A DNA stretch of 64,000 bases from Phycisphaerales bacterium. Lineage in GTDB: Bacteria; Planctomycetota; Phycisphaerae; Phycisphaerales; UBA1924. Position numbers and translations under genes: made by a program. Shown in pieces: positions 48,737 through 64,000 of the stretch (position 1 is the stretch's first letter; every line of letters begins with the position of its first letter). The notes under the pieces were generated by a model, which was given only the letters and a program-made list of their open reading frames with translations, had not been told where the DNA came from and ran no database searches. Location: the NCBI GenBank assembly GCA_965228605.1, contig OZ245825.1, positions 735,621 to 799,620 of the forward strand, read 5' to 3'.

Positions 48737-48903
48737 CGTTGGACCTCCTGTGCGAGTGCTACGCCGGCGGGTGGGGGCGGGATCGCCCAAGCCGTGAGGG
48801 TAGTCGGCCCGGAGAAGTGGGCCCGGCGGGCTGACAGGTGGCGTGGAGCGGGTATGATGGGCGGTGCTGAGCGGCCCCCCGGGTCGCCCGGCACGACAAC
48901 CTG

Positions 48904-48976
48904 GGGGCAGTAGCTCAATTGGGAGAGCGCCTCGGTCGCATCGAGGAGGTTGTGAGTTCGAGCCTCATCTGCTCCA
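48904..48976 (+). tRNA. tRNA-Ala (CGC)
   Basis: G3:U70 identity pair. Anticodon loop GTCGCAT. Canonical D-arm GCTC-AATTGGGA-GAGC. Confidence 0.8.
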
Positions 48977-48988
48977 CTTGCCCAGGAC

Positions 48989-49025
48989 GGGCCGGCTTGC
49001 GAGAGCCGGCCCGTGTGGCTTTTTG
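48989..49025 (+). terminator. Rho-independent terminator after tRNA-Ala
   Basis: GGGCCGGC-TTGCGAGA-GCCGGCCC stem-loop followed by GTGTGGCTTTTT. Confidence 0.7.
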
Positions 49026-49078
49026 GGGCGCGAAAGCGCGGCTCACCGGGGCCCAATGATGCGGCGGGAGGCAGATCG

Positions 49079-49303
49079 ATGGTGAAGGACGTTGTGAAGG
49101 CGCTGACTCAAGAGCTGACCCGCTGCGCGGTCGCCACGTGTGTGGGCGCCGTCGTCGGCGGGGCCGCGGGGGCGGGCGTCGGGCTCTGGCTTGGGATGGG
49201 GCTCAGTGGATTGGCGGCGTTCGCGGGGATCGGCGCGGTGCTCTGCGGGGCGGGGATGCTGTTCCTCTATGTGATGATCGTCGCGGACACGACGGTCCTG
49301 TAG
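49079..49303 (+). CDS. Small membrane protein (Gly/Ala-rich TM helices)
   Basis: ATG 49079 (MVKDVVKAL…) followed by two hydrophobic helices. Confidence 0.4.
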   Translation: MVKDVVKALTQELTRCAVATCVGAVVGGAAGAGVGLWLGMGLSGLAAFAGIGAVLCGAGMLFLYVMIVADTTVL

Positions 49304-49378
49304 GTGCTGAGCGAGTCAGGGGCAGCGCTGGCCGAAGGCCGCGAGCAGTTGGTTCAGGTCGGTCAGTCGCTGCTAGGG

Positions 49379-50521
49379 CTACCAGTCGGCTAGGAGGTCG
49401 AACCGCTCGCCGGTCCGCCATCGCGGTGGTACTCGGTCCACCGATGAGACCCTGGCGTCGTCATCGAAGGTGAGGACGAGCGTGAAGGGCTCACCGGCGT
49501 CCATGTCGTACTCCCATCGGTCGGCAAACCAGATGACCTGATCGGGCTCCCCGATCGCGACGAGCACGGCGCTGCTGGTCAGGCCTCGTGTGATCGAGTC
49601 TGCGTGGTCGTGTCTGGGGCCCTTGAGTGGAGGGAGTTTCAGGCCCGAGTCGGTGCATGGGCAGGCGGGTGGCACAGCGCCGAGCATGCGGATCGCCGTG
49701 TGGACGAACGCACGGACGGGGAGCTGCTCGACGCTGCCTGGGTCGAGCCGGCCTCTCAGAGAAGGGCGGTCCTTCTCGGGCGCGACGACCGGCGCGCACG
49801 CGATCCGGTGGAGGGCCGGCAGGGCTTCCTTTGCGCCAGCCGAACCCGCGAGTAGCGCTGCGTTGGCGATGGGGTAGAGCGACTCCCATTCTCCGGGTTT
49901 CGGTTCGGCGTTCTCCAGTTCCCGCACCGCCTTCGCGACTTCCGCGCGTTCTGCAGCCTTGAGCAATCCGGGCGTGATCTCCGTGTTGCGCCGATCGGTG
50001 AGGCTCAGAGCGATCCGCGTACCCCATGAGGTGCGGAGCACGAAGTACTCCTTGTCTTCGTGGTTGAGGAAGTACCAGTTTGAGTAACTCGACCACATCG
50101 GCCCCGCTGTCGTCCAGGAGATGTGGGCCTCGTCCTCCTTCGAGAAGGCATCAAAGATCCGAAGTTCGCACGCCTTGGCGCCCGTGAGTGGTTCGAAGGC
50201 GAACAGCTCGTCGTGTGCCGTTCGGGCGACGAGCCACCCGGAGTCGCTGATCCACAGCGCAACGGGTGACGGCTCTTCTCGCGGCTGACGACGAGTCCAC
50301 AGGACGGTGTCGGTTGCGACATCGCGGAATGTGTAGACGAAGTCGTCGGCGAACGGCTGACGGTTGGCGTTGTCGGGCGAGACGGTTGTGGCGTGATAGG
50401 CCCCGTTGGGTGACGTCGCTTCCGCGTCCTGGTAATAACGGTTGGTCGCGCTGGCATGCGGGGCGGCGGAGAGCAGCAGCGTGGTGGCGAGGGCAACGGC
50501 GGGCGACTTGGCGCGGGCCAT
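49379..50521 (-). CDS. Secreted hypothetical protein, co-operonic with the upstream HEAT/zinc-ribbon membrane protein
   Basis: Signal peptide MARAKSPAVALATTLLLSAAPHASA. 4-nt gap to the upstream gene. Confidence 0.5.
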   Translation of the reverse strand: MARAKSPAVALATTLLLSAAPHASATNRYYQDAEATSPNGAYHATTVSPDNANRQPFADDFVYTFRDVATDTVLWTRRQPREEPSPVALWISDSGWLVARTAHDELFAFEPLTGAKACELRIFDAFSKEDEAHISWTTAGPMWSSYSNWYFLNHEDKEYFVLRTSWGTRIALSLTDRRNTEITPGLLKAAERAEVAKAVRELENAEPKPGEWESLYPIANAALLAGSAGAKEALPALHRIACAPVVAPEKDRPSLRGRLDPGSVEQLPVRAFVHTAIRMLGAVPPACPCTDSGLKLPPLKGPRHDHADSITRGLTSSAVLVAIGEPDQVIWFADRWEYDMDAGEPFTLVLTFDDDARVSSVDRVPPRWRTGERFDLLADW

Positions 50522-50525
50522 GAGT

Positions 50526-51791
50526 TCACTCCTTCGAGTCGAGTGCCTTGAGGATGCCAGATGAGTAGACACGGAGAACCGGATCGTTGCTTTGGGCAGC
50601 GGTCGTAGCGATGCCCCTGGAGGCCTGAGCGCCAGCCGGCGCCAGCGAGAGGAGAGCGCGGAGCGAGGCCATCTGTCGCGCTGGATCCGACGAGGCGTAC
50701 TCGGCCGCGGCCCGATCCGTGGCCTGCGCGATCAGTGCCGGCTCGGTGGCGATGCTCTGCGCCGCTGCGGTGCGAGCGATCGCCTCCGGCTCGAAGAGGC
50801 ACTCGAGGAGCAAGCCGGCAACCTCGGGGTGCAGCGGGTCGATCGAACCCAGCGCTTCGATGCAGAGTCCCTTGTCAGGGGCATCATTGACCTGGCCCAG
50901 GAGCGACAAGATGTCATCGAGAGCGGGCTGTGCAAGCGGTCCGATCCTCCCGAGCGCCTGCGCCGCCGCTGCACGGGTGTCGTCCCATCTGCTCGCCGGG
51001 GTGGGTGCCCGGACGAGTTCTCGCAACAGCGGTATCGCCTCGGCGGCATATGGGCCATAGAGGCCAAGCAGCGTGACATAGCCAGAGTCGGTGGAGTCCT
51101 CTTCGAGCAGTCCGATGATGACAGGAACGGCGCGCGATGCGCCCGTGGGCGCGCACGAGGACAAGATGCTCCTGCAGGTCCATCTCCCCTCATAGTTCGA
51201 GGACTGTTCGAGGGCGATCAGTTCATCGATGACAAGGTCCACCGCCGGGGCGGCGTCAGCGTCCATCGCGTCGAGCCATCCCAGGACCGTCGGGTCGAGC
51301 GGATCCGGGCCGGGGCGGCTCAGGACACTCGCACAGCAACGCGCGAGCAAACGGTGTTGCCACGAGGTGCCCGCCGATAGTCGCGTGCCCCTCCATCGCT
51401 TCTCGAACAACCGCTCGCTCACCGCCTTGATGCGCACATCGTCCGGGTCTTCGCACAGGGGTACCCCGAGGATCAGGAGTGTCGTTGGCGCGACGCGGAC
51501 CCACCCCTCGCCCCGTAGCTGGGGGAACGAGGCGATCGCGGCGGAAGTGACAATCAACGCTGCTGCCAGCCCGGCTCGCCCCCAGCGCCGCTTGGTCTTC
51601 GTGAGCCTGCGGGCGTGGCGCGCGTTGTTCCCACACTCGGGACAGGTCAGGCCCGCGGTGCCCGACATGTCGTACCAGCACTTGGGGCAGCGCAGCCGGC
51701 CCTTGGATCGGTCTGCGAACAGCGCTCTGGCCAGCAGCAGAAGCGCGGCCGCCAGCCCGAGGCCTCCCGTCAGGTACCAGGCCCACTCCAT
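50526..51791 (-). CDS. Membrane protein: TM – cytoplasmic zinc ribbon (RCPKCWYDMSGTAGLTCPECG) – TM – periplasmic HEAT-repeat domain
   Basis: N-terminal module paralogous to the zinc-ribbon family members. The C-terminal part has HEAT/armadillo-like repeats. Confidence 0.6.
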   Translation of the reverse strand: MEWAWYLTGGLGLAAALLLLARALFADRSKGRLRCPKCWYDMSGTAGLTCPECGNNARHARRLTKTKRRWGRAGLAAALIVTSAAIASFPQLRGEGWVRVAPTTLLILGVPLCEDPDDVRIKAVSERLFEKRWRGTRLSAGTSWQHRLLARCCASVLSRPGPDPLDPTVLGWLDAMDADAAPAVDLVIDELIALEQSSNYEGRWTCRSILSSCAPTGASRAVPVIIGLLEEDSTDSGYVTLLGLYGPYAAEAIPLLRELVRAPTPASRWDDTRAAAAQALGRIGPLAQPALDDILSLLGQVNDAPDKGLCIEALGSIDPLHPEVAGLLLECLFEPEAIARTAAAQSIATEPALIAQATDRAAAEYASSDPARQMASLRALLSLAPAGAQASRGIATTAAQSNDPVLRVYSSGILKALDSKE

Positions 51792-51854
51792 AGCCAGACC
51801 ATACGCCCGGCGGGGGGATCGGTTGCCCGCGAAGGGCCGCTACACTCGCCACCC

Positions 51855-54728
51855 ATGGCCAAACGGACCACGCCCACGCCGGCGATGCGCCAGTTCTACG
51901 CCTTCAAAGAGCAGCACCCGGGGTGCGTGCTCTTCTTCCGCATGGGCGACTTTTACGAGCTGTTCGAGGACGATGCCAAGCTCGCTTCGCGCGTGCTCGG
52001 GCTCACGCTCACGCAGCGCTCGGAGGGTGTGCCCATGGCGGGCGTGCCCTACCACTCGGCCGATGGGTACATCAAGCGGATGATTGAGGCGGGCCACCGC
52101 GTCGCGATCGCGGACCAGGTGCAGGACCCGAAGGAGGCCAAGGGCATCGTCGAGCGCGCGGTGACGCGCGTCGTCACCCCGGGCACGCGGATCGACGAGT
52201 CCCTGCTCGACGATGCGGCCAACCACCTCGCGGCGGTGTGCTTCCTCGGTGAGGGCGATGACCCCGATGGGCCCGTCGCGTGGGGTGTGGTCGAGGCGTC
52301 CACGGGGGCGTTCGTGATCGGCGAGTCGGTGGCATCGCTCCTGAGCGACGACCTGGCGCGCTGGGGCGCGAGCGAGGTGCTGTATTGCGAGACCGCGACG
52401 GGCAAGCCGCCGGCGCGTCTCGACGCGGCGGTGGGGGGGCTCGGGTGCTCGCTCACAGCGCGGGCGTCGTGGCACTTCCGTCAGAAGGAATCGGTCGAGG
52501 CGCTGTCCGAGCAGTTCGGCGTCACGACCCTCGAGGGATTCGGGCTCGTCGATGACGACCCGGCACTGCGCCCCGCGGGGGTGCTCGTGCGCTACCTGCG
52601 CGAGACGCAGGCGCTCGACATGGGCGAGGTCGCGACGTCGGAGGGCGCTGGCTCGGGGACGATGCTCGCGGCGGTTCTGCGCTCGCGCTCGCTTGCGCAC
52701 CTGCGCCCGCCCCGGCGCGAGGTGCGCACGGGGCACGTCGTCATCGATGCGGTCACGCTTCGCGCGCTGGAAGTCGAGCGCACGGTGCGCGATGGTGCGC
52801 TTGAGGGCTCGCTGGTCGGCGCGTTCCTCTCGGGCGCGGGACGCGGGTGCGCGACCCCCATGGGCAAGCGGCTCCTCCGCGAGTGGCTCACGCGCCCGCT
52901 CGCGGATGCGGGCGCGATCACGGCCCGCCAGGACGCGGTCGCGACGCTGGTCGAGGACCGAAGGGCGGCGGGCGAACTCGGGCGTGCGCTGGAGCGTGTC
53001 CAGGACGTGGCCCGCATCGTCGGGCGCATCGGGCTCGGGCGCGCGACGCCGCGTGACCTGGTGGCGATGGGGCGGTCGCTGGGCGCGATCAGCGCGATCG
53101 AGGCCGCGATGGAGGGTGCGCCGGCGCTGCGCGCGCACCGCGAGGCCCTCGCCGGCCTGCGTGCATCGCTCGAACCGATCGCGGCGGACATCGCGGCGCA
53201 GTGTGTCGAATCACCACCCGCGCACCTGCGCGAGGGCGGGCTGTTCCGCGATGGCGTGGATGCGGAGCTCGACGAGTGCCGGGGCCTGCAGCGCGAGTCG
53301 GACTCGTGGCTCGCCAGGTACCAGGGCGAGCTGATCGAGGCGCACGACCTGCCGAGCCTCAAGGTGGGCTACAACAAGGTCTTCGGCTACTACATCGAGC
53401 TGCCCGCCGCCCAGGCGCGGCGCGCGCCGGATGTGTTCACGCGCAAGCAGACGCTCAAGAACGCCGAGCGGTACATCACCCCCGAGCTCAAGCAGTACGA
53501 GGACAAGGTGCTCAGCGCGGGCGAGCGGGCGATCGCGCGCGAGCTGACGCTGTTCCTCGGCCTGTGCGCACGCGTGACGGAACTGGCGGGCGAGGTGGCG
53601 CGGTTCGGGGAGTGCGTCGCGGAGCTCGATGTGCTGGCGTGCTTTGCGGGGAAGGCGGCGAGCCGGGGGTGGGTGCGCCCGGAGGTCGAGGGCGAGGCGT
53701 CGGTGGTGGACATCGAGGAGGGCCGCCACCCGGTACTCGACGAGGTGCTCGCGCACGAGTTCGTGCCCAATGGTTGTGCACTGGGTGTGCGCACCGCGAG
53801 CGCGGGGGCTGTGGAGGGTGCGCCGCGGCTTGCGCTGATCACCGGGCCCAACATGGCGGGCAAGTCCACGTACATCCGCCAGGTCGCGCTGCTCGTGCTG
53901 CTCGCGCACACGGGGTCGTTCCTCCCAGCCGACCGGGCGCGCGTGGGCATCGTCGACCGCATCTTCTCGCGGCTCGGCGCAGACGATGCGCTGCACCGCG
54001 GTCAGTCGACGTTCATGGTGGAGATGATCGAGACCGCGCGGATCCTCCACCACGCGACGGGGCGGTCGCTCATCGTGCTCGACGAGATCGGGCGCGGGAC
54101 CTCGACGCTTGATGGGTTGAGCCTGGCGTGGGCGATCGCGGAGGAGTTGGGGGCCGGAGAGACGGAGGGACGTGGGGGAGAAGAGACGGAGAGACGGAGA
54201 GACGGAGAGACGGAGTGTGGGAGTGGGCCGGGGGGTGATGGGTCGCCGTTGGTTTTGTTCGCAACGCACTACCACGAGTTGACGGAACTGGCCGAGTCGA
54301 TGCCTCATGCGGTGCGCAACCTGCACGTGAGCGTGGAGGAGTTCGGGGATGAGATCGTGTTCCTGCACCGCATCGTGCCCGGCGCGGCCGGGGGGAGCTA
54401 CGGCATCCACGTCGCCAAGCTCGCGGGCCTGCCAAGGGGCGTGGTCGCGCGGGCCCAGCACCTGCTCGGATCGCTCAGCGTCTCGCAGGAGCAGGCGCTG
54501 AGGAGCGGGGAGGGCGGCGCGGGTGCGCCGTCGGCGCGCCCGCCGGCGGATCAGATGATGCTGTTCACACAATTCGTCACGCACCCGGTGGTGGACGAGC
54601 TGAAGTCGCTCGACATCACCCGCCTGTCGCCCATGGACGCGTTCGATGAGCTGCGGCGGATGTCGCGGTCGGTGCGGGAGAGCGCGGACGGGGGCGCACC
54701 CGACGGCCCGGGGCCGAACGGGCGGTGA
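51855..54728 (+). CDS. mutS: DNA mismatch repair protein MutS carrying an in-frame insertion encoded by tandem GAGACGGA repeats
   Basis: All MutS domains are present (mismatch-binding N-terminus, Walker A GPNMAGKSTYIRQ, DEIGRGTST, ATHYHEL). About 25 extra residues (…GETEGRGGEETERRRDGETECGSGPGGDG…) lie between Walker B and the THYHEL motif. Start taken at ATG 51855. Confidence 0.9.
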   Translation: MAKRTTPTPAMRQFYAFKEQHPGCVLFFRMGDFYELFEDDAKLASRVLGLTLTQRSEGVPMAGVPYHSADGYIKRMIEAGHRVAIADQVQDPKEAKGIVERAVTRVVTPGTRIDESLLDDAANHLAAVCFLGEGDDPDGPVAWGVVEASTGAFVIGESVASLLSDDLARWGASEVLYCETATGKPPARLDAAVGGLGCSLTARASWHFRQKESVEALSEQFGVTTLEGFGLVDDDPALRPAGVLVRYLRETQALDMGEVATSEGAGSGTMLAAVLRSRSLAHLRPPRREVRTGHVVIDAVTLRALEVERTVRDGALEGSLVGAFLSGAGRGCATPMGKRLLREWLTRPLADAGAITARQDAVATLVEDRRAAGELGRALERVQDVARIVGRIGLGRATPRDLVAMGRSLGAISAIEAAMEGAPALRAHREALAGLRASLEPIAADIAAQCVESPPAHLREGGLFRDGVDAELDECRGLQRESDSWLARYQGELIEAHDLPSLKVGYNKVFGYYIELPAAQARRAPDVFTRKQTLKNAERYITPELKQYEDKVLSAGERAIARELTLFLGLCARVTELAGEVARFGECVAELDVLACFAGKAASRGWVRPEVEGEASVVDIEEGRHPVLDEVLAHEFVPNGCALGVRTASAGAVEGAPRLALITGPNMAGKSTYIRQVALLVLLAHTGSFLPADRARVGIVDRIFSRLGADDALHRGQSTFMVEMIETARILHHATGRSLIVLDEIGRGTSTLDGLSLAWAIAEELGAGETEGRGGEETERRRDGETECGSGPGGDGSPLVLFATHYHELTELAESMPHAVRNLHVSVEEFGDEIVFLHRIVPGAAGGSYGIHVAKLAGLPRGVVARAQHLLGSLSVSQEQALRSGEGGAGAPSARPPADQMMLFTQFVTHPVVDELKSLDITRLSPMDAFDELRRMSRSVRESADGGAPDGPGPNGR
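54183..54214. repeat. Four perfect tandem copies of the 8-mer GAGACGGA inside mutS (plus a degenerate copy at 54159-54166)
   Basis: The reverse complement, TCCGTCTC, is the repeat unit that fills the tRNA-array spacers. Confidence 0.8.
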
Positions 54729-54992: not shown

Positions 54993-56063
54993 TTGCCCGT
55001 GATGAACCCGATCCCCCCCATCCTGGCCCAGGCCGCAACGAATGCCCCGCGTCCCCCGGCGCTGGGGGATGAAGTGTCGTCGGCGTTGCGCGACCTGGAC
55101 TGGTCGGCGCACACCATCGTGCTCGGGGCGCTGGTGATCGGCATCGCGGTCTGGCTCTTCGGGCGTGCGCTGTCGCGCCTGGCGTTCGGGGGTGTGGGGC
55201 TCGTGCTCGGCGCTTCGGCCGGGTGGAGCCTGCCCGCGGCGGTCGGGCTCAACTTCGACACGTGGCTCACCACGGGGATCGGCGCGATCCTCGGGCTGAT
55301 CGTCGGGATGGCGGCGCTGCGCTTTGTCGTGGCCAGTTCGCTCGGCGTGCTGCTCGCCGCGGTCTCGCCCTTCGTCATGACGGGGCTGCTCACGCTCAAC
55401 CCGCCACCCCCCCCAGGCGCCGACCCCGATGCGCCGGGGCCCGGCATCGACCTGCCCTCACAGCTCCCCACGCTCCCGCTCAACGGCGCCGGCGGCGACG
55501 GCGAGGCGGCGCCGCCCGCGGGGCTGAGTCCCGAGGAATTGAAGGAGTGGAAGGACCTCTACGAGGACTTCGTGAAAGGTGGGGATGCGGAGGGGGGCGA
55601 TGCGCCCGCGGGCGGCGGTCCCGGAGCCGACGACCCGGGCGAGCCATCGCAAGCCGAGCAGACGCTCGCGGAGGGCGCAGAGCGTGTGCGCGTGTTCTTC
55701 GGCGCGCTGGGTGATCAGCTCCGCCCGTATTGGGACGAGATGGACGGGCGCCAGAAGACGCTTTACATCGGCGCGGCGTTGCTTGCGCTGGCGGTGGGCG
55801 TGGGCGGCGGGATGCTGCTGCCCAAGAAGTCGGCGGCGCTGGTGACGGCGTTCCTCGGCGCGGGCCTGTGGATTCCTGCGAGCGTGTGGCTCTGCAGCCT
55901 CGCGGGCAAGCCGTTGCCTGGCCTGCTGCCCGAGAGCCCGCTGGGGTGGGTGGCGGTGTGGCTGGGCGCGGGGGCGCTGGGGACCGTGTTCCAATGGACG
56001 GGCATTGGCGGGCGCGTGCTCAGGCGCGGCAAGAAGAAGCGGGGGCGGACGGACGACGAGTAG
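54993..56063 (+). CDS. Integral membrane protein (multi-TM with Pro/Gly/Asp-rich central loop)
   Basis: Several TM helices at both ends. Low-complexity acidic central region. Confidence 0.55.
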   Translation: MPVMNPIPPILAQAATNAPRPPALGDEVSSALRDLDWSAHTIVLGALVIGIAVWLFGRALSRLAFGGVGLVLGASAGWSLPAAVGLNFDTWLTTGIGAILGLIVGMAALRFVVASSLGVLLAAVSPFVMTGLLTLNPPPPPGADPDAPGPGIDLPSQLPTLPLNGAGGDGEAAPPAGLSPEELKEWKDLYEDFVKGGDAEGGDAPAGGGPGADDPGEPSQAEQTLAEGAERVRVFFGALGDQLRPYWDEMDGRQKTLYIGAALLALAVGVGGGMLLPKKSAALVTAFLGAGLWIPASVWLCSLAGKPLPGLLPESPLGWVAVWLGAGALGTVFQWTGIGGRVLRRGKKKRGRTDDE

Positions 56064-56081
56064 CCGGCGCCCGGTGGTGCG

Positions 56082-57536
56082 CTAGGGGTCGGTGACCTCG
56101 ACCGGGAGTGTGATCTCGCCGCGCCAGTAAGACGTCGCCTCGTGGGCGGAGAGGGCGGCGGCTTCGTCGGTGGAGATGCGGACGCGCCAACGGGGGGCGT
56201 CGGACGGGGTGATTCGGAAGAGTTCGTCATCGACGGGGGTCATCTCGACCTCATCGAGCCACATCGGAGTCGATTGGGTCCAGACTTCCCAGCCGGTGGC
56301 GACGACAGTGTCGTCGAGCATGAGGTCGATGCGGATGCCGAAGGCCATGCCTGGGTAGGGCGTGCACACGTCGGAGACCGCAAAGTCCCATTGGCCCGGG
56401 GTGCCGTTCTGGCCCGCGGGGACGATTGGGCGCGTGTGGAACCAGAGCTGGAAGTGGGGGGCGGCTTTCTCCCGCCTGACGGCGCCGATGGAGAGCTGCT
56501 GGCGGAGCCTGTCGGCGATCGTGGGGTCGGGGATGGGGGTGAGGATGTCGTCGATGCTCTCGACGCCTTCGAGTTCGAGCGTGATGTCGTGGCGTGCGAT
56601 CACGCCACTCGCGGCGTGGGCTGCGAGGCGAAGTTCGGTCGTGTTGGGGCCCAGCGCCGGGGGATCGAGGATGAGCCGGTCGCGGCGGGCCCAGAAGTCC
56701 GAGGAAGGGAGGCCCCAGATCCTGTTCGGCCCATCGATCATCAGTGTGGCGGTCCTGTCGGGCGCGCTCGGCTCTGAGAGTTGGATGTTGAGGTGTGACC
56801 AGCAGTCGGACCTGAACCACGGCCCGGTGTGGCCCAGTTGCACGATCACGGGGAGGCCGGCGACCCAGCGGTCGCGGACCTTGACGGCATCGCGTGCGGT
56901 GGCGGCGGTGCCGATGTACTCGCGTCGCAGGCCGAAGCGGCGGAGGAACGCCGGCGCCTCGTGCTCGACACGGCGCGTGGTTTCGGAGCGGAGCGTTGTC
57001 CTCGGGCCGCTGAGGTCATCGACGAGGAGGAAGAGGATGGGCGTCGGGATGCCGGCGACCAGGCCGCGCTCGCGCATCTCGTCGAAGCGGAAGGCGGGCC
57101 AGGCGAGGAGGAGGGCGAAGACCGCGGCGGCCGCGGTGCGCCAGCGGCGTCGTCGGCGGCGCCAGTCCTTGGGGCCCTTGACGGTGCGGCCGCACTCGGG
57201 GCAGCGGCCGGTGGGGTTGTCGCGGTCGAGGTCGCTGAGGTCGTAGGTGCACCTGGGGCAGCGCTGGCCGCGCGGACGCCGGCCTCGCAGCGCCCAGGCG
57301 AGCAGGGCGAGGCTCGCGAGCGCGATGCCCGCTGCGGCGTGGTCCCATGTGGGCGGGAAGGGGTACCAACTGGAGTACCGGATATCGTCGATCAAGCCCG
57401 GGATGATCGACGGGCCGATGGGGATGAAGATCGCGAGGGCGAGGGCGACGAGGCCCATGCCGCTCGCGGAGGCGACCAGGCTCACGATTGCCATCCACTC
57501 GCCGATCGTCGATTGCTGCATCGAACACCTGAGCAC
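56082..57536 (-). CDS. Membrane protein: TM – TM – zinc ribbon (RCPRCTYDLSDLDRDNPTGRCPECG) – polyArg – TM – large extracytoplasmic domain
   Basis: Shares the zinc-ribbon plus basic tract plus TM module with the genes at 45811, 46460 and 50526. Confidence 0.6.
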   Translation of the reverse strand: MLRCSMQQSTIGEWMAIVSLVASASGMGLVALALAIFIPIGPSIIPGLIDDIRYSSWYPFPPTWDHAAAGIALASLALLAWALRGRRPRGQRCPRCTYDLSDLDRDNPTGRCPECGRTVKGPKDWRRRRRRWRTAAAAVFALLLAWPAFRFDEMRERGLVAGIPTPILFLLVDDLSGPRTTLRSETTRRVEHEAPAFLRRFGLRREYIGTAATARDAVKVRDRWVAGLPVIVQLGHTGPWFRSDCWSHLNIQLSEPSAPDRTATLMIDGPNRIWGLPSSDFWARRDRLILDPPALGPNTTELRLAAHAASGVIARHDITLELEGVESIDDILTPIPDPTIADRLRQQLSIGAVRREKAAPHFQLWFHTRPIVPAGQNGTPGQWDFAVSDVCTPYPGMAFGIRIDLMLDDTVVATGWEVWTQSTPMWLDEVEMTPVDDELFRITPSDAPRWRVRISTDEAAALSAHEATSYWRGEITLPVEVTDP

Positions 57537-57687
57537 TTGGTCGGGGAGCGGTGCTGAAGCCGTCTCGCTCCGTGTCCAGAAGCCGACCTGCTCGCGGCGT
57601 TCACTCCCAGGAGCTCAACCTCGTCCTGAGCGCGTTCGGGGGGGCGTGTGACCGACGGACACGCGCCGAACGCGCGAGGAGGCCCAA

Positions 57688-57734
57688 AGCGGGTGACCGG
57701 AGTCGAACCGGCGACATTCAGCTTGGGAAGCTAG
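57688..57734 (-). other. 3' fragment (about 47 nt) of a tRNA-Gly (CCC) gene, a putative attL/attR of an integrated element
   Basis: The reverse complement reads …AGCTT-CCCAAG…GCCGG-TTCGACT-CCGGT-CACCCGC-T (anticodon arm, T-arm, Gly-type acceptor with U73). No 5' half (acceptor 5', D-arm) is present. Confidence 0.6.
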
Positions 57735-57906
57735 TTCATGGGACTTGCGCGCGGTGGGGGTGGGTGGCTCAGGATGCCCGTGGGATCGGCGGAATCGGCG
57801 GTCTGAGCGGGGTTGTGGACGATTCTCGTGGGTCGCCTCGTCTCGGCTCATCGACGCCCGGATACGGTTACATGCGCCAAGAAGTGCGCCAAACCTTGGA
57901 GTTCGC

Positions 57907-59616
57907 ATGAGCAGCGACGTTCGGTTGTCTGATGCGCTCACGCTCGACCCGGAGAAGCTCGCCACCACGCGGGCGCTGATCCAGGCGTCGTCGGGCGGGG
58001 GCAAGAGCTACCTGCTGCGGCTCATCGTCGAGCAGTGCGCCGATGCGATGCCCGTCATCGTCATCGACCCCGAGGGCGAGCTGCACACGATGCGGGAGGT
58101 CGTCAGCATGATCCTGGTCGGCGGCGGCGGCGAGGTGCCCTGCACGGTCGCGTCGGCGGGCAAGGTCGCCCGCTCGCTGCTCGAGCACCAGGCGTCGGCG
58201 ATCGTGGACCTGTCGGACCTGCACCACAGGCACCACGCCGAGTACGTCGCGTCGTTCGTCGCCGCGCTGATGAGCGCCCCGCGGCGGCTGTGGAGGAAGA
58301 CGCTGGTCTGCATCGACGAGGCCCACCGGGTGTGCCCAGAGGGGGCGGCGGTGGACTCGTCGGACGCGGTGATGGACCTGATGAGCCGGGGCCGCAAGCG
58401 CGGGTACGGCGGCGTGCTGCTCACGCAGCGGCTCTCGAAGCTCTCGAAGAACGCCGCGGCCGAGGCGGCGAACCAGTTCGTGGGCTACATGAACCTCGAC
58501 GCGGATGTGAAGCGGGCCGCCGACACGCTGGGCATCACCAAGGCCGAGGCGGGCGAGCTGCGGAAGCTCGCGCCCGGCGAGTGGTTCGGGTACGGGCCCG
58601 CGCTGAGCGAGCGCGGCGTCGTGCGGTTCAACGCCGACGAGCCGCAGACCACGCCGCCCGATGGCGCCCAGTCGGCGGCGCCTCGTGTGAAGCACGGCGC
58701 GGCGGTCGCCCAGCTCGCGGCGGCGGTGGCTGAGGCGGCGGAGGACACCACGCCGGTGAGCCTGGAAGAGGCCGAGCAGCGGGTGCGCGAGCTGGAGGTG
58801 GAGCTGCGGCGGGTGAAGGCGGCGGCGCCGCCCACAGCGCCCTCGGGCATGAGCGATGCTGAGCACGAGCGGTGCGTGCAGGCGGCGGTGCGCGCTGCGG
58901 TGGAGAAGCGGGATGCCGAGTGGTCGCAGCGGCTCGCGGGTGTGCAGATGAAGGTGCCCAGGCTTGTGTCGTCGCTGCGCGAGACGGTCGATGGCGTTGA
59001 GGCGGTGAGCTCGACGCTCGCGGGCCTCGCGCCTGCGCCGCTGAACGGCTCGGCGTATGTGGCGACGCCGATTCCGAGGCGTGAGGGTCGATCTGAAACG
59101 TCTCAGAAAGAAACGAGGCCGGAAGTTGCCATCGGCGGAGGCGGTCTGACCGGTCCGGAGCTGCGAGTGCTGAGGTCGTCCGACTGGTGGTCGTCGATCG
59201 GGGTGGCCCAGCCAAGCCGGGTGCAGCTCGCGATCGTCGCCGGGTATCACGAGCGGACCAAGAGCTTCACGAATGCACTCGGGTCGTTGCGATCGAAGGG
59301 GTTCATGGAGGGGGACCGCATGACCTGTGAGGGCGCGCAGGCTCTCGGTGCGCCGAGTCACGACCCGCCGACGATGGCGGCGTTCCACGAGATGATCCGG
59401 GGGCAGCTCCGGGGCGTGGTGCTGCGGGTGTTCGATGCGGTGCTGGCGCGTGGCGGTCGGGTCGGGCGTGCCGAGCTGGCTGAGGCGCTTGACTACCACG
59501 AGCGGACCAAGAGCTTCACGAACGCGCTGGGGCGGCTGCGGACGTTCGGGCTGATCGACTACGAGCAGGGGGACATCGTGGCGACGGGGCTGGTGTACCC
59601 CGAGGCGCTGGTATGA
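57907..59616 (+). CDS. P-loop ATPase (HerA/FtsK/DUF87-like) with duplicated C-terminal winged-helix-like repeats. Prophage/mobile-element associated.
   Basis: Walker A SSGGGKSYLLR, Walker B VCIDEAHRV. C-terminal tandem repeat YHERTKSFTNALG(S/R)LR…. Confidence 0.6.
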   Translation: MSSDVRLSDALTLDPEKLATTRALIQASSGGGKSYLLRLIVEQCADAMPVIVIDPEGELHTMREVVSMILVGGGGEVPCTVASAGKVARSLLEHQASAIVDLSDLHHRHHAEYVASFVAALMSAPRRLWRKTLVCIDEAHRVCPEGAAVDSSDAVMDLMSRGRKRGYGGVLLTQRLSKLSKNAAAEAANQFVGYMNLDADVKRAADTLGITKAEAGELRKLAPGEWFGYGPALSERGVVRFNADEPQTTPPDGAQSAAPRVKHGAAVAQLAAAVAEAAEDTTPVSLEEAEQRVRELEVELRRVKAAAPPTAPSGMSDAEHERCVQAAVRAAVEKRDAEWSQRLAGVQMKVPRLVSSLRETVDGVEAVSSTLAGLAPAPLNGSAYVATPIPRREGRSETSQKETRPEVAIGGGGLTGPELRVLRSSDWWSSIGVAQPSRVQLAIVAGYHERTKSFTNALGSLRSKGFMEGDRMTCEGAQALGAPSHDPPTMAAFHEMIRGQLRGVVLRVFDAVLARGGRVGRAELAEALDYHERTKSFTNALGRLRTFGLIDYEQGDIVATGLVYPEALV

Positions 59617-59658
59617 TCTGGGTGGGTGTGTCTCGATTGTCCACAAGGAGGTATGAGA

Positions 59659-59829
59659 ATGGCGGAGCGCGAGCCCAGTGCGACCTATCACGACACGTTG
59701 AACGCGATCGAGCGGATCGGGAAGATCGCAAACCGCGACAGGGCGACGGCTGAGGCGCTGTGCCTGATCGCCGAGCAGCAGGCGCGGATCGCCGATGCGC
59801 TGGAGCGGCTTGCTGACCGAGAGGGGTAG
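59659..59829 (+). CDS. Small hypothetical protein (phage-like)
   Basis: RBS AAGGAGG 7 nt upstream of ATG 59659. Confidence 0.4.
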   Translation: MAEREPSATYHDTLNAIERIGKIANRDRATAEALCLIAEQQARIADALERLADREG

Positions 59830-60128
59830 GTCCGTCTCCGGCGGGGGTGGCGGGGGCGATGGTCGGGGAGCCGGTCGAGACGGCGAGCGAGGACGAGGCG
59901 CGGGCCGCCCACGGCGGATAGACACCTCAGTACGCTGATCGGTCGACTCGCGCGTAGTGGATAAGTCGATCCCGAGTTGACGACCATCACCGCGCGGTTA
60001 GTCTTCTCGTGTTCGCAACACGTCGCCCCGTTCCGGCCTGATGGAGGTTTTTCCATGCAGGCTTGTGTTCGTTGTCACGTTCCCCACAACCTGAGCCGCG
60101 CTGAACCGGCCGAGCCCAGCCGGGGGGT

Positions 60129-60320
60129 GTGCACATGACCGATGGCATGAGGACCTCCGAGTTCTGGGTCTCGCTCGTTGTGATCGTCGGCGGCACCGTG
60201 CTCGCTGCGATCGGGAAGCTCACACCTGAATGGACCGCACTCGCCACCGGCACCACCGGTGCGTACGCGGTCGCGCGCGGCCTCGCCAAGCGGGGCCAGA
60301 AGGAGAACGGCTCGCTATGA
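60129..60320 (+). CDS. Small membrane protein (holin-like)
   Basis: 63 aa, one or two TM helices. Overlaps the downstream lipoprotein gene start. Confidence 0.4.
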   Translation: MHMTDGMRTSEFWVSLVVIVGGTVLAAIGKLTPEWTALATGTTGAYAVARGLAKRGQKENGSL

Positions 60321-60877
60321 CGACTCTCTCACGCATCGCCCTCGTTGCCCTGACTGCTCTGCTGATGGTTGGATGCACCACGCAGAGCCCACCGCCCAAC
60401 ATCGCGAATGCCGGCGTCACGGTGGACGGGGTCACCCAGGAGACACTCGTCGATGACGGCGAGGTCCTGACGTTCACCGGTCTGCAGACCAACTACTACG
60501 ACTCGACCGCCGAAGGCACGTACATGCTGAACAACGTGCCGAACAAGATCACCGAGGTGAACTACGGCGGCGCCCAACTCCGCCATGGCGGACCCGAGGA
60601 CCTCACGATCGAGGACATGAAGATCACGTTCGCTGATGGGACCGTGATCGACATCGGCACGGTGTCGACGCTGACCACGACACTGATCGAGGCCAATGCT
60701 GCGTTGGTCACCGAGCTGGTCGGCGGCCAGGTGGACCTGGCGAACTCCGAGGCCGTCAAGGGATGGGTGCAGGCGAAGCTCGCCGAGGGCGAGCGCTTCG
60801 AGAACATCGCGTCTGCACTGGGGTCGCTGGGCCTGGACATCGCGACGCTGTTCGCACCAGTGCCTGTACCGCAGTAG
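60318..60877 (+). CDS. Lipoprotein of unknown function
   Basis: Lipobox LLMVGC. Thr-rich beta-rich body. Confidence 0.55.
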
Positions 60878-60894
60878 CCGCACCCATCAAACGC

Positions 60895-60995
60895 GGTTGT
60901 TAGGTCTTTCGTTTCGACACCTGGATGCCGAACGAAACGGGCCTGAGAGCCCGCAATCCGAGATTGCAACCCGTTCAATGTCCTAACACGGGTCC
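60895..60995 (+). ncRNA. Structured non-coding element (nested hairpins, lower GC) immediately upstream of the terminase gene. Possible pac/cos region or small RNA.
   Basis: Long-range stem GTTAGG…CCTAAC enclosing hairpins CGTTTCG…CGAAACG, GGGC-CTGAGA-GCCC and GCAAT-CCGAG-ATTGC. No ORF. Confidence 0.35.
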
Positions 60996-61102
60996 TTCCG
61001 GGACACGTACCCCTTTGCCATACCTAACGGAGCAGTCGGAAATGCCAACTGACTTTCTTTCCTTTCAGGAACAGATGAAATCGGGCTAACGAGGGGCGTG
61101 GT

Positions 61103-63178
61103 TTGGCCAAGCGGTCCCCGGCGGCGGAGGCGTACGAGGCGCACAAGGAGCGCGCCGCCGGGCGTCAGGCATCTCAGAGTGCCGCGGGGCGGGACATCGG
61201 CGACATCCCCAAGGTCGCCGATGCCCGCCGCAAGAGCAGGTGCAGGCGGAGCTTCAAGCTCTTCTGCGAAACGTACTTCCCAGAGGTCTTCAACAAGCCA
61301 TGGTCACCCGACCACCTGAAGGTCATCAAGAAGATCGAACTCGCGGTGCTCCGTGGCGAGCTGTTCGCTGTGGCGATGCCGCGCGGCTCGGGCAAGACCA
61401 GCCTCTGCGAGGTCGCGGTGATCTGGGCGGTGCTCTACGGGCATCGGGTGTTCGTGGTGCTGATCGGCGCGACTCAGACCGCTGCGCAGGAGTCGCTCGA
61501 CTCGATCAAAACCGAGATCGAGACGAACGAGCTCCTCGGGGCCGACTTCCCGGAGGTCTGCTACCCGGTCCAGCAGCTCGACGGCATCAACCAGCGGGCA
61601 GCGGGTCAGCTCTGCAAGGGCCAGCGCACGGCGATCGAGTGGACCAACGAGAAGGTCGTGCTCCCGACCGTGAAGGGCAGCAAGGCGTCGGGCGCAGTCG
61701 TGAGGGTCGCAGGCCTGACCGGTGGCATCCGCGGCATGAAGCACAAGACCCGGGACGGCCGGTCGATTCGCCCGGACCTGGTCCTCATCGACGACCCGCA
61801 GACCGACGAGAGCGCCCACTCTCCGACCCAATGCGACACGCGCCATCGCCTCCTGATGGGCGCGGTGTTGGGCCTGGCGGGGCCGGGCAAGCAGATCGCG
61901 GGACTGATGCCCTGCACCGTGGTGCGGGAGGGGGACCTGGCCGACAGGATCCTCGACGTCGAGAAGCACCCCGAGTGGCACGGGGAGCGGACCAAGCTGA
62001 TGTACGAGATGCCGAAGGACACGGCGCTCTGGGACGAGTACGCCGAAGTCCTGAAGGCGAGTATGCGCCGCGGCGAGGACATGAGCGAGGCGACCGAGTT
62101 CTACGAGGTCCGGCGCGCGAAGATGGACGCGGGCGCCGTCGCGGCGTGGGAGCACCGCTTCGACGCGGAGCGCGAGGCGTCGGCGATCCAGCACGCGATG
62201 AACCTGCTGATCACGCGCGGCGAGGAGGCGTTCTGGGCGGAGTATCAGAACCAGCCGCTGAAGCCGGACGACTCCCCGGACCTGCTGACCGCGGATCAGA
62301 TCGCCTCGAAGACCAACGGGCATGCGAGGAGGCGCGCGCCAATCTGGGCGGAGCACCTGACGGCGTTCATCGACGTCCAGGGCGACGTCCTCTTCTACGT
62401 GGTGACCGCGTGGGGGAAGAACTTCACGGGCGCGATCGTCGACTACGGCTCGGAGCCCGACCAGGGTGTGCCCTACTTCACGATCCGGAAGCTCCGCAAG
62501 GGCCTCAAGCGCGCGGCGCCGAAGGGCAGCGGCATGGAGGCCGCAATCTACGCGGGCCTCGAGCGTCTGGTCGAGCGGCTGATGTTGACAGCGTGGGAGC
62601 GGGACGACGGGGCCCCGATGCACATCGAGCGGATGGGCATCGACTCGGCGTGGGGCAAGACCCAGAGCCTGGTCTTCCAGTTCTGCAGGCAGAGCACGCA
62701 CTCCCGAGTGCTAATCCCGACGCGTGGGCAGTTCTACGGCGCCTCGAGCATGCCGTTCAACGAGTACCGGGCGAAGGCCGGCGACCGGATCGGGCATCAC
62801 TGGCGCGTGCCATCGGTGACCAACCGCGCGATCACACGGCGCCTCGACTACGACACGAACTACTGGAAGAGCTTCCTGCACGAGCGGCTGCGTGTCGGGA
62901 TGGGCGACCCGGGGTGCCTGTCGCTCTACGGCGACGACCCCCAGCGACACCGGATGCTCGCAGACCATCTGCTCTCCGAGCGACCGTACCGGGTGACGGG
63001 ACGCGGGCAGGTTGTGGACGAGTGGAAGGGTCAGCCGGGACTGGAAAATCACTTGTTCGACGGGGCCACGGGCTGCTGTGTGCTCGGGTCGATGCTCGGG
63101 TGCGAGCTGGCGGGGGTGGCCAACGCGCCGAAGAAGCGACGCGTTCGCTTGTCGGAGAAGCAGAGGGCGCGCCGGTGA
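61103..63178 (+). CDS. Phage terminase large subunit (ATPase plus nuclease)
   Basis: Walker A MPRGSGKT, Walker B LVLIDDPQTDE. C-terminal RNaseH-like nuclease region. 691 aa. Confidence 0.8.
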   Translation: MAKRSPAAEAYEAHKERAAGRQASQSAAGRDIGDIPKVADARRKSRCRRSFKLFCETYFPEVFNKPWSPDHLKVIKKIELAVLRGELFAVAMPRGSGKTSLCEVAVIWAVLYGHRVFVVLIGATQTAAQESLDSIKTEIETNELLGADFPEVCYPVQQLDGINQRAAGQLCKGQRTAIEWTNEKVVLPTVKGSKASGAVVRVAGLTGGIRGMKHKTRDGRSIRPDLVLIDDPQTDESAHSPTQCDTRHRLLMGAVLGLAGPGKQIAGLMPCTVVREGDLADRILDVEKHPEWHGERTKLMYEMPKDTALWDEYAEVLKASMRRGEDMSEATEFYEVRRAKMDAGAVAAWEHRFDAEREASAIQHAMNLLITRGEEAFWAEYQNQPLKPDDSPDLLTADQIASKTNGHARRRAPIWAEHLTAFIDVQGDVLFYVVTAWGKNFTGAIVDYGSEPDQGVPYFTIRKLRKGLKRAAPKGSGMEAAIYAGLERLVERLMLTAWERDDGAPMHIERMGIDSAWGKTQSLVFQFCRQSTHSRVLIPTRGQFYGASSMPFNEYRAKAGDRIGHHWRVPSVTNRAITRRLDYDTNYWKSFLHERLRVGMGDPGCLSLYGDDPQRHRMLADHLLSERPYRVTGRGQVVDEWKGQPGLENHLFDGATGCCVLGSMLGCELAGVANAPKKRRVRLSEKQRARR

Positions 63179-63206
63179 GCGCGGGGGAGGCCTATGCGTG
63201 ATCGCG

Positions 63207-63401
63207 ATGGCGGGACGGACCCCTTCAGATCCCGAGCGCGACGATGCCCATCGCGCGATTCGATGCCCGAAGTGCGGGTGTGGTCACTTCAAGGTCGTCT
63301 ACACGCGGCATGTCGGCAAAACGGTCCGACGTCGGAAGGAGTGCAGGTATTGCGGGCATCGCCTGACAACCTCCGAGAGGAGTCTCGGTGCCGGCACGTG
63401 A
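63207..63401 (+). CDS. Small zinc-ribbon protein (C4: CPKCG…CRYCG)
   Basis: 64-aa ORF with two CxxC pairs, directly downstream of the terminase. Confidence 0.45.
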   Translation: MAGRTPSDPERDDAHRAIRCPKCGCGHFKVVYTRHVGKTVRRRKECRYCGHRLTTSERSLGAGT

Positions 63402-63548
63402 CCCCTCTCGCCCTAGGGGGCGTGGGGTGGCCTTGAGGCGGATCGATTGGCGCGGCAGCGCCGCTCCATGGACCGCTCTCACGTCGAGATGACGTTGGAG
63501 CGGCTTCACAACTTTGGGCCATGAACGCCCAGAAAGGAGAGTGCATCC

Positions 63549-64000
63549 ATGATGCACCGATCTGTCATCGGACTATTGGGTCTGCTCTGTGTGTCCGTCG
63601 CCTCCGCACCAGGCCAGAGTCAGCCTCTGGAGGAGCAGCCACCGTGCTGCCAGTCGCTCTGCGGCGTTGGTACGGCCTCTGAGTTCTTTGATCGCGGCGA
63701 CGTCACTGTGCGCGTCACGGTGACGTCGTACCGGGACGTGCGGGCGGAGCTCTGCGTCGCCTATCTGGATTGCTCACAGCTCGAGTGCTGGGAGAAGGAC
63801 TTCGCCCTTCAGACGACCCCGCTTCAGACCGAGACCAAGACCCACACGCTGTCGCAGTGGTTCTGCGGGGACCTCGACTTCGATCTGGCCTACGACCTCC
63901 GCGTCTCGAACTACCCGATGTCGTGGGGCGACCTGGGATGGATGGAACTGAACTCGCTCTCCTGCTTCTCCGGAGACGACACCTACGACCGCCAAGCTGC
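63549..64000 (+). CDS. Secreted Cys-rich protein, 3'-truncated by the window edge. Noticeably lower GC than the rest of the window.
   Basis: ATG 63549 (MMHRSVIGLLGLLCVSVASA signal peptide). The open frame continues to position 64000. The codon usage is AT-richer. Confidence 0.5.
   Translation, partial: MMHRSVIGLLGLLCVSVASAPGQSQPLEEQPPCCQSLCGVGTASEFFDRGDVTVRVTVTSYRDVRAELCVAYLDCSQLECWEKDFALQTTPLQTETKTHTLSQWFCGDLDFDLAYDLRVSNYPMSWGDLGWMELNSLSCFSGDDTYDRQA

What the first reader, a model, noticed from the sequence alone, without database searches (positions are those of the whole stretch)
57688..64000. Prophage-like segment bounded on the left by a 3' remnant of tRNA-Gly(CCC)
A 47-nt copy of the 3' part of a Gly(CCC) tRNA has no 5' half. 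This is the typical footprint of site-specific integration into a tRNA gene (att duplication). Immediately to its right lie an HerA/FtsK-like ATPase with duplicated wHTH repeats, small phage-like ORFs, a holin-like membrane protein, a lipoprotein, a structured non-coding region, a terminase large subunit, a Zn-ribbon protein and a lower-GC secreted-protein gene. The intact tRNA-Gly and the integrase would be expected beyond the right window edge.
Basis: partly seen in the sequence, partly recalled or inferred. Interest (0 to 1): 0.6.

Follow-up and report, generated by a model that had tools for sequence, protein, structure and literature searches.

The report
Prophage end at a tRNA-Gly remnant
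The last 6.3 kb of this Phycisphaerae-type chromosome window is one end of a virus-derived element that inserted into a glycine tRNA gene and left a 45-base tRNA fragment as its scar; this is an ordinary kind of event, and the other end lies outside the window.

Summary
Bases 57732-57688 (minus strand) are an exact 45-nt copy of the anticodon arm through 3' end of a tRNA-Gly(CCC). The same 44-mer occurs in 20 metagenome contigs: 14 as intact tRNA-Gly(CCC) genes, 5 as similar orphan fragments beside unrelated islands. This tRNA end is therefore a recurrent integration target.

The fragment's orientation puts the inserted DNA to its right. That DNA encodes:
- a HerA/FtsK-fold ATPase with two winged-helix repeats; its family occurs in at least 163 viral contigs, next to integrase, RecT and helicase genes where looked at;
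- three orphan small genes;
- a lambda gpA-type large terminase;
- an NrdR-like zinc-ribbon gene that follows this terminase in many relatives, ahead of portal, capsid and tail genes.

The secreted-protein gene at the window edge sits where relatives carry variable cargo.

Not supported: the "structured" non-coding region folds no better than shuffles, and the holin label has no family hit.

Not testable: the source genome is withheld, so the intact tRNA, the integrase and completeness are unknown. No small terminase gene was found, which hints at a rearranged or defective element.

Verdict: a new member of a known kind, of low to moderate interest.

The parts
57688..57732 (-). Displaced 3' fragment of tRNA-Gly(CCC): anticodon stem 5' strand through the discriminator base. 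This is an attR-type junction, with no D arm or 5' acceptor strand to its right.
   Evidence: a 45-nt exact match to 14 intact metagenomic tRNA-Gly(CCC) genes.
57620..57685 (-). Long GC-rich hairpin directly 3' of the tRNA fragment, on the chromosomal side. It is possibly the original tRNA terminator.
   Evidence: -34.7 kcal/mol, z = -1.59. The signal is modest and the role is inferred only.
57907..59616 (+). ATPase of 569 aa. It has an N-terminal HerA/FtsK-fold P-loop domain (Walker A SSGGGKS, Walker B IDEAH), a long coiled coil, a disordered linker and two tandem winged-helix repeats (DNA repeat 59245-59309 / 59494-59558).
59659..59829 (+). 56-aa helical ORF with no detectable relatives.
59830..60134 (.). 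305-nt non-coding gap, not unusually structured.
   Evidence: z = +0.20.
60135..60320 (+). 61-aa small membrane protein. Its stop codon overlaps the start of the next gene. The holin role is conjecture.
60317..60877 (+). 186-aa lipoprotein (signal peptide plus lipobox LMVGC), close to an orphan.
   Evidence: One search finds three hits at E <= 0.001 among 1.84 billion representatives, one of them the protein itself. One search finds none in IMG/VR.
60878..61102 (.). 225-nt non-coding region at 55% GC, directly upstream of the terminase gene. It is a candidate late promoter or packaging-site region (inferred). It is not more structured than chance.
61103..63178 (+). Large terminase subunit, lambda gpA type, 691 aa, TTG start. 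It lacks the roughly 65-aa N-terminal HTH extension that most relatives carry.
63207..63401 (+). 64-aa NrdR-like zinc-ribbon protein (CPKC-x22-CRYC). It is found directly after this terminase in many relatives.
63549..64000 (+). 5' part (at least 150 aa) of a Cys-rich protein with a signal-peptide-like N-terminus. It sits where relatives carry variable cargo, between the Zn-ribbon gene and the gpW-like and portal genes. It runs off the window.

Best explanation
This is the integrase-distal (attR-type) junction and the first 6.3 kb of a temperate-phage genome inserted by site-specific recombination into the 3' part of a tRNA-Gly(CCC) gene of a Phycisphaerae-type (Planctomycetota) chromosome.

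How it works: a tyrosine integrase recombines a phage attP that carries a copy of the tRNA's anticodon-arm-to-3'-end segment with the chromosomal gene. The phage copy regenerates the tRNA at the far end. The original 45-nt 3' piece is displaced to this end, where it still abuts the old chromosomal flank.

Reading inward from the scar, the element carries:
- an early-region HerA/FtsK-type DNA ATPase with two winged-helix DNA-reading heads (inferred role: sequence-directed DNA translocase or replication-initiation motor);
- a small membrane protein and a lipoprotein (accessory or lysis-related, role unproven);
- a lower-GC control region;
- the start of the late packaging/head operon (gpA-type large terminase plus a small zinc-ribbon partner);
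- a cargo gene for a secreted protein, in the family's usual cargo slot.

Portal, capsid, tail, lysogeny genes, integrase and the intact tRNA would lie beyond base 64000.

Shown: the tRNA fragment and its orientation, the protein families, and their viral context in relatives. Inferred: that the far end exists, the roles of the ATPase and the small genes, and whether the element is still complete (I put complete against defective at roughly 55:45).
For: (1) The fragment is real and specific. It matches intact tRNA-Gly(CCC) genes exactly over 45 nt, and the 5' part is absent here.

(2) The same tRNA end carries other islands. Five further orphan fragments have different flanks (L142, L145, L147, L155, L160). 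One contig holds an intact tRNA plus a fragment in the same orientation about 6.5 kb away (L149/L160). An integrase lies 1.7 kb from the L142 fragment.

(3) The geometry matches the rule that a regenerated tDNA and its displaced fragment mark island ends. In the Islander survey, 3760 of 3919 islands have 3' fragments (PMC4383910).

(4) To the left is chromosome: MutS, then ZnuA-tRNA-Ala(CGC)-MutS synteny shared with relatives, and housekeeping genes.

(5) The ATPase family is in at least 163 IMG/VR contigs. It lies beside an integrase and an SNF2 helicase in L029, beside RecT and HNH genes in L030, and beside tail genes in L022, where it is about 1.3 kb from a tRNA-like fragment at a chromosome junction.

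(6) In relatives, the terminase and Zn-ribbon pair precedes gpW-like, portal, protease-capsid, cement, head-tail joining and tail genes.

(7) The slot after the Zn-ribbon gene holds variable cargo in relatives. This explains the secreted-protein gene without needing a truncation.

(8) The ATPase (569 aa) and terminase (691 aa) ORFs are intact and full length against their relatives.
Against: No second repeat copy, intact tRNA-Gly(CCC) or integrase lies inside the window, and the far end cannot be read.

All 19 close relatives whose upstream sequence was inspected have a small-terminase or HTH gene directly before this terminase; this covers both architecture types. The window instead has 225 nt of non-coding DNA and a lipoprotein gene, and no such homologue anywhere in its 64 kb.

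The ATPase sits 170 nt from the scar, without the early genes that surround it in relatives.

The ATPase and terminase families do not co-occur within 10 kb in any of about 130 related loci. The element is therefore a mosaic and may be rearranged.

Four of the seven ORFs have no phage relatives. No endolysin, repressor or capsid gene is visible.

No empty-site comparison was possible, because the nearest MutS relatives are only 62-63% identical and lose synteny downstream.
Confidence: 0.72

Rival explanations
1. It is a cryptic, defective prophage remnant. A phage did integrate at tRNA-Gly(CCC), but later deletions and replacements left only scattered phage genes (ATPase, terminase, Zn-ribbon) among unrelated orphan genes. 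The integrase, the head and tail genes, or the far att site may be gone. The element can no longer excise or package.
For: No small-terminase or HTH gene stands upstream of the terminase, unlike the 19 close relatives inspected. The ATPase directly abuts the scar with none of its usual early-gene neighbours. There are two non-coding gaps of 305 and 225 nt. The gpW-like and portal genes are replaced, at least locally, by a secreted-protein gene. The orphan genes have no viral relatives.
Against: Both large phage ORFs are intact and full length. The cargo slot after the Zn-ribbon gene is variable in apparently complete relatives too. Relatives with a separate small-terminase gene also have 691-aa terminases, so the terminase itself is not truncated. 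Everything right of 64000 is unseen.
Confidence: 0.3
2. It is a tRNA-integrated island that is not a phage, for example a phage satellite or a mixed genomic island that captured a terminase module. Alternatively, the fragment is the scar of an older, unrelated event, and the phage genes arrived separately.
For: Other fragments of the same tRNA flank non-phage cargo: a Ser/Thr kinase and a VCPO-like protein in L147, and an MmeI-type enzyme in L155. The ATPase and terminase modules never co-occur in relatives. There is no small terminase. In tandem arrays several fragments can accumulate at one tDNA (PMC4383910).
Against: The DNA next to the outermost fragment is by construction the element that displaced it. 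The only genes here with relatives are phage genes. The terminase and Zn-ribbon pair has the same order and spacing as in full head operons. No conjugation, transposase or defence-system hits were found.
Confidence: 0.08
3. The tRNA resemblance is due to chance, or to a decayed tRNA pseudogene, and has nothing to do with integration.
For: The Rfam score is below the family threshold (17.4 against 29 bits). No partner copy lies in the window.
Against: There is an exact 45-nt identity to 14 intact tRNA-Gly(CCC) genes, with a sharp break at the anticodon stem. No shuffle matched. Five other loci show the same break pattern, each with a different flank. A gene decaying in place would keep a recognisable but mutated 5' half, not unrelated sequence.
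Confidence: 0.01

Closest known systems
tDNA-integrated prophages and genomic islands as mapped by Islander/TIGER (lambdoid-style site-specific integration by tyrosine integrases; anticodon-centred attB class)
   Same: There is a displaced 3' tRNA fragment running from the anticodon stem to the 3' end, oriented so that the island lies on its 5' side. There are phage genes inside and chromosomal genes outside. The same tDNA is used repeatedly by different islands (PMC4383910).
   Different: Only one end is visible, so no integrase or regenerated tDNA could be shown. The host is a little-studied Phycisphaerae-type planctomycete.
Lambda-like head/packaging operon (Nu1-A-W-B-C...; gpA terminase PF20454, portal Phage_portal_2) as found in many Phycisphaerae prophages (L162, L163, L006, L013)
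   Same: The gpA-type large terminase is 45-59% identical to these relatives. The same small gene follows it, and the same position then leads to gpW-like, portal and protease-capsid genes in relatives.
   Different: No Nu1-like or other small-terminase gene and no N-terminal HTH extension is present. The partner after the terminase is an NrdR-type zinc ribbon, which lambda lacks. The downstream head genes are not visible.
HerA/FtsK-superfamily DNA ATPases (archaeal HerA 4d2i, defence-system HerA 8wiv/8sub, STIV2 B204 packaging NTPase 4kft; FtsK with its gamma winged-helix)
   Same: The core is a P-loop with the HerA/FtsK fold (Foldseek E = 4e-12; TM 0.75 relative to B204), with Walker A and B motifs. 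Like FtsK-gamma, it has C-terminal winged-helix DNA-reading modules.
   Different: It lacks the HerA N-terminal barrel (HAS) domain and has no nuclease or SIR2 partner gene. It has a coiled coil plus two tandem wHTH repeats. It sits in phage early regions. Sequence matches to curated HerA and VirB4 models are far below their cut-offs. It is best treated as an uncharacterised phage family.
NrdR transcriptional repressor
   Same: The N-terminal four-cysteine zinc ribbon, with the VRRRxxC motif, matches PF22811 (8e-11) and TIGR00244 residues 1-43.
   Different: It has no ATP-cone domain, is only 64 aa long, and is linked to a phage terminase. It is not an NrdR orthologue.

Membership tests
tDNA-integrated island/prophage (Islander criteria) | A displaced fragment of a tRNA gene marks one end | tested here: met
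   45-nt exact 3' fragment of tRNA-Gly(CCC) at 57688-57732 (-).
tDNA-integrated island/prophage (Islander criteria) | Intact cognate tRNA gene in the same orientation at the other end (direct repeat) | not testable with these tools
   None in the window. The source contig is not retrievable.
tDNA-integrated island/prophage (Islander criteria) | Tyrosine integrase gene inside the island | tested here: inconclusive
   None of the ORFs in 57.7-64 kb matches an integrase family. It is expected at the unseen far end.
Prophage (tailed phage) | Large terminase gene | tested here: met
   PF20454 1.9e-19; phrog_38 2.8e-42; 7534 relatives with E <= 1e-50.
Prophage (tailed phage) | Portal, major capsid and tail genes | not testable with these tools
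   Absent from the visible 6.3 kb. In relatives they follow the terminase within 0.3-2.2 kb, which is beyond the window edge here.
Prophage (tailed phage) | Small terminase or DNA-recognition subunit next to the large terminase | tested here: not met
   No homologue of the relatives' HTH ORF, N-terminal HTH extension or 153-197-aa protein is upstream of 61103 or anywhere in the window.
HerA/FtsK ATPase superfamily | P-loop core with Walker A and B motifs and the HerA/FtsK fold | tested here: met
   DUF87 4.6e-9; invariant GGGKS and IDEAH; Foldseek hits to 8wiv, 4d2i and 4kft.
HerA/FtsK ATPase superfamily | Hexameric ring that translocates DNA | not testable with these tools
   Only a monomer model was made.
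NrdR | Zinc ribbon plus ATP-cone | tested here: not met
   Only the zinc ribbon is present; the protein ends at residue 64.
Holin | Membership of a known holin family, and an adjacent endolysin | tested here: not met
   No Pfam, PHROG or NCBIfam holin hit, and no endolysin in 57.7-64 kb. Only one or two hydrophobic segments and a charged C-terminus.
Bacterial lipoprotein | Signal peptide ending in a lipobox cysteine | tested here: met
   MTTLSRIALVALTALLMVG-C read directly from the translation. No dedicated predictor was available.

The most novel reading that the evidence does not exclude
The element is a working unit that packages DNA without a classical small terminase. On this reading, the NrdR-like zinc-ribbon protein that follows this terminase in many Phycisphaerae prophages supplies, or helps supply, DNA recognition. 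The HerA-fold ATPase with two winged-helix heads, an uncharacterised family found in at least 163 viral contigs, is a new kind of sequence-directed phage DNA motor or replication initiator placed next to the attachment site.
Probability: 0.08. Interest if true: 0.55.

Novelty: new member of a known kind. Interest (0 to 1): 0.25.

Why it matters
The finding gives a precisely mapped junction for an integrated phage-derived element in a planctomycete of the Phycisphaerae type, a group with very few characterised phages. It also shows that the 3' end of tRNA-Gly(CCC) is a repeatedly used landing site in this lineage. That is useful for annotating the genome, for finding inducible phages, and possibly as an integrase and att pair for genetic tools. 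The biology itself, tRNA-targeted integration of a lambda-like phage, is textbook. The two side products worth a specialist's attention are the widespread, unstudied HerA-plus-double-wHTH ATPase family of phage early regions, and the conserved terminase and zinc-ribbon gene pair.

Tried and rejected
1. Extending the sequence failed. Exact look-ups of the terminase and ATPase, and of the 100%-identical database entry P0001, returned nothing. The GTDB representative genomes do not hold the source; the best terminase match is 56%. The cluster look-up gave no accession.
2. An empty-site comparison through MutS was not informative. The nearest MutS proteins are 62-63% identical. ZnuA-tRNA-Ala-MutS is kept, but the downstream genes differ and no tRNA-Gly lies nearby.
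3. A tblastx run of loci against the window gave only high-GC noise and was discarded.
4. I searched for the att 44-mer in viral contigs to find an attP. There were no hits.
5. I looked for the window's other genes beside ATPase or terminase relatives. None is shared.
6. I tested both non-coding regions for RNA structure and Rfam families. Nothing was found. No sigma-70-like promoter or excess of terminators was found either.
7. I tested whether the 56-aa ORF is a degraded small terminase. It is not.
8. A defence-system reading of the HerA-like ATPase was rejected. There are only weak PADLOC hits, no partner gene, and the context in relatives is phage early regions.
9. The tRNA-like fragment at the L022 prophage junction could not be assigned to a tRNA. 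I use it only as a weak parallel.
10. The lipoprotein and the secreted protein have no relatives in IMG/VR, and the lipoprotein has almost none anywhere.
Full report
**Setting.** The window is a high-GC (about 69%) bacterial chromosome segment. It carries CTP synthase, phosphoglucomutase, an M1 peptidase, a pseudouridine synthase and MutS. Its closest MutS and terminase relatives are Phycisphaerae/Planctomycetota metagenome-assembled genomes. The database copies of its ATPase, MutS and terminase (P0001, P0121, P0241) all sit on one 3,900,213-bp contig. That contig cannot be retrieved with the tools, so nothing right of base 64000 could be read.

**The tRNA fragment is real.** ARAGORN finds 21 tRNAs in the window, none of them Gly(CCC) and none near 57.7 kb.
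- On the minus strand, the Rfam tRNA model aligns without gaps from the anticodon arm (loop UUCCCAA) through the variable loop and T arm (GCCGG-UUCGACU-CCGGU) to the acceptor 3' strand and discriminator.
- The positions that should form the 5' acceptor strand are mismatched, and the D arm is missing.
- The 48-mer is unique in the window and never arises in shuffles.

**It matches intact genes elsewhere.** The exact 44-mer occurs in 20 metagenome contigs.
- Fourteen are intact tRNA-Gly(CCC) genes with the 5' part GCGGGTGTAGTTCAGTGGTAGAACGTCA.
- One further copy (L144) is cut off by a contig end and cannot be classified.
- The window matches these genes over exactly 45 tRNA bases (57732 down to 57688) and then diverges abruptly. 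That is the signature of a recombination breakpoint, not of decay in place.

**The same tRNA end is used repeatedly.** Five other contigs (L142, L145, L147, L155, L160) hold the same orphan fragment, each with a different sequence on its 5' side.
- In contig Ga0081535_100524, an intact gene (L149) and a fragment (L160) lie about 6.5 kb apart in the same orientation.
- In L142, a tyrosine integrase lies 1.7 kb from the fragment.
- The 3' end of this tRNA is therefore a recurrent integration target in this lineage.

**Geometry.** Integration into a tDNA splits the gene. The island carries a copy that regenerates it, and the regenerated gene and the displaced fragment mark the two ends. Most mapped islands have 3' fragments (3760 of 3919) (PMC4383910).
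- Here the fragment reads right to left, so the island lies on its 5' side, at coordinates above 57732.
- The old chromosomal flank lies to the left. It has a long hairpin directly 3' of the fragment, then a membrane and zinc-ribbon protein gene and MutS.
- That the integrase usually lies beside the intact tRNA gene rests on my own knowledge of such islands, not on a tool result.
- A block that starts at the anticodon stem fits the anticodon-centred class of tDNA sites listed in that paper.

**What lies inside: the ATPase.** It occupies 57907-59616.
- It hits DUF87/HerA and Zot in Pfam and several PHROGs.
- An AlphaFold model (mean pLDDT 85) matches HerA structures and the STIV2 B204 packaging NTPase.
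- The model also shows a coiled coil (about residues 286-371), a disordered linker and two winged-helix repeats. These are visible as a 77%-identical DNA repeat 249 nt apart, and they are conserved across the family.
- The family has at least 308 members in the protein database and occurs in at least 163 IMG/VR contigs.
- Where the neighbourhood was read, it sits in early regions: after an integrase and an SNF2 helicase in L029, after RecT, an exonuclease-like protein and HNH in L030, and beside tail genes in a Phycisphaera genome, L022.
- In L022 it is about 1.3 kb from a tRNA-like T-arm/acceptor fragment at the junction with chromosomal genes. This parallels the window, but I could not assign that fragment to a tRNA.

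**What lies inside: the terminase and its partner.** The terminase (61103-63178) is a gpA-type large subunit (PF20454, phrog_38).
- It belongs to a very large family, with 7534 proteins at E <= 1e-50.
- The best relatives are 56-59% identical.
- The next gene is not the ATG ORF at 63194 but the frame 63207-63401. It encodes a 64-aa NrdR-type zinc ribbon (PF22811, 8e-11).
- A homologue follows the terminase within about 10-60 nt in many relatives.
- In those relatives the order continues: a roughly 150-nt spacer, a gpW-like 64-81-aa gene, portal (Phage_portal_2), protease-capsid fusion, cement protein, head-tail joining and tail genes. This is a lambda-like late operon.

**The window edge.** In the window, the spacer after the zinc-ribbon gene is followed by a gene for a Cys-rich protein with a signal peptide, which runs off the window. 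This does not by itself mean truncation.
- In relatives, the same slot holds 0.3-2.2 kb of variable cargo before the gpW-like gene.
- That cargo includes an AbiEi/AbiEii-like pair in L112 (recognised by eye from the translations, not by a family search), a 331-341-aa reverse-strand gene in L139 and L115, and a sigma-factor-like gene in L013.

**What does not fit a tidy, complete prophage.**
- All 19 close relatives whose upstream sequence was inspected have a DNA-recognition partner directly upstream of the terminase. It is either a roughly 66-78-aa HTH ORF plus a roughly 65-aa HTH extension on the terminase (hence their 753-766 aa), or a separate 153-197-aa protein before a 691-aa terminase.
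- The window has neither. There are 225 nt of 55%-GC non-coding DNA, then a lipoprotein gene, and no homologue of either type anywhere in the 64 kb.
- The ATPase starts 170 nt from the scar, without any of the early genes that surround it elsewhere.
- The ATPase and terminase families never co-occur within 10 kb in about 130 related loci.
- The 56-aa ORF, the 61-aa membrane protein, the lipoprotein and the secreted protein have no phage relatives. The lipoprotein has only two relatives among 1.84 billion representative proteins.
- The element is therefore at least a mosaic, and it may be rearranged or defective. On the other side, both large ORFs are intact.

- The non-coding region upstream of the terminase is not unusually structured (z = -0.54). 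Neither is the 305-nt gap after the ATPase operon (z = +0.20). No Rfam family matches.
- 'Holin-like' rests only on one or two hydrophobic segments. There is no family hit and no endolysin nearby.

**Conclusion.**
- The best reading, at about 0.7, is the integrase-distal junction of a tRNA-Gly(CCC)-integrated temperate phage of a lambda-like head type that is common in Phycisphaerae. It also carries an early-region HerA-fold/double-wHTH ATPase.
- Within that reading, complete and defective are roughly evenly balanced. The rival figure of 0.30 for a defective remnant expresses that split and overlaps the 0.72; it is not an independent alternative.
- A non-phage island or an unrelated older scar is unlikely (about 0.08). 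Chance is excluded.
- This is a new member of a well-known kind. It is useful for annotation and as a lead to planctomycete phages, but not surprising.

Noticed in passing
window 29146-34955: A dense array of 18 tRNA genes lies in 5.8 kb on the plus strand, interrupted by an SPFH/Band-7 gene (30999-32579). It includes an unusual call, tRNA-Cys with anticodon ACA (30840-30914), and a weak tRNA-Ala(TGC) (35.9 bits). The surroundings look like housekeeping chromosome.
   Followed up: partly
window 17001-18000: A 1-kb stretch has only 57% GC in a roughly 69% GC chromosome.
   Followed up: no
L142, L145, L147, L155, L160 (with L149): The same tRNA-Gly(CCC) 3' 44-mer occurs as an orphan fragment beside five different islands in marine metagenome contigs. 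Cargo includes an integrase (L142), an MmeI-type restriction enzyme (L155), and a Ser/Thr kinase and a VCPO-like protein (L147). In contig Ga0081535_100524, an intact gene and a fragment are about 6.5 kb apart.
   Followed up: partly
L112 4481-6720; L139 12213-13701; L115 9950-11757; L013 12240-13142: In relatives of the terminase operon, the gap between the zinc-ribbon gene and the gpW-like/portal genes is a variable cargo slot. It holds an AbiEi/AbiEii-like pair (recognised by eye), a 331-341-aa reverse-strand gene with an XRE-like neighbour, or a sigma-factor-like gene.
   Followed up: partly
L001-L011, L111-L121, L139 (upstream of the terminase match): Most relatives encode a roughly 66-78-aa HTH protein and carry a roughly 65-aa HTH extension on the large terminase itself (753-766 aa). 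This looks like a split or fused small-terminase arrangement. The window's terminase lacks both.
   Followed up: partly
L022 8655-8715 (Phycisphaera sp. CP098402.1): A tRNA-like T-arm/acceptor fragment on the minus strand lies at the junction between chromosomal genes and a prophage. The prophage's first genes include the ATPase homologue (45% identical). No tRNA gene is called there, and the parent tRNA was not identified.
   Followed up: partly
window 47789-54728; L027, L028: The gene order ZnuA, tRNA-Ala(CGC), MutS is conserved with relatives whose MutS is only about 62% identical. The genes after MutS (54993-57536 in the window) have no counterparts there and no family hits.
   Followed up: partly
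window 57620-57685 (-): A long GC-rich hairpin lies immediately 3' of the tRNA fragment (-34.7 kcal/mol, z = -1.6). It is possibly the old tRNA terminator, although no U-tract follows it.
   Followed up: partly
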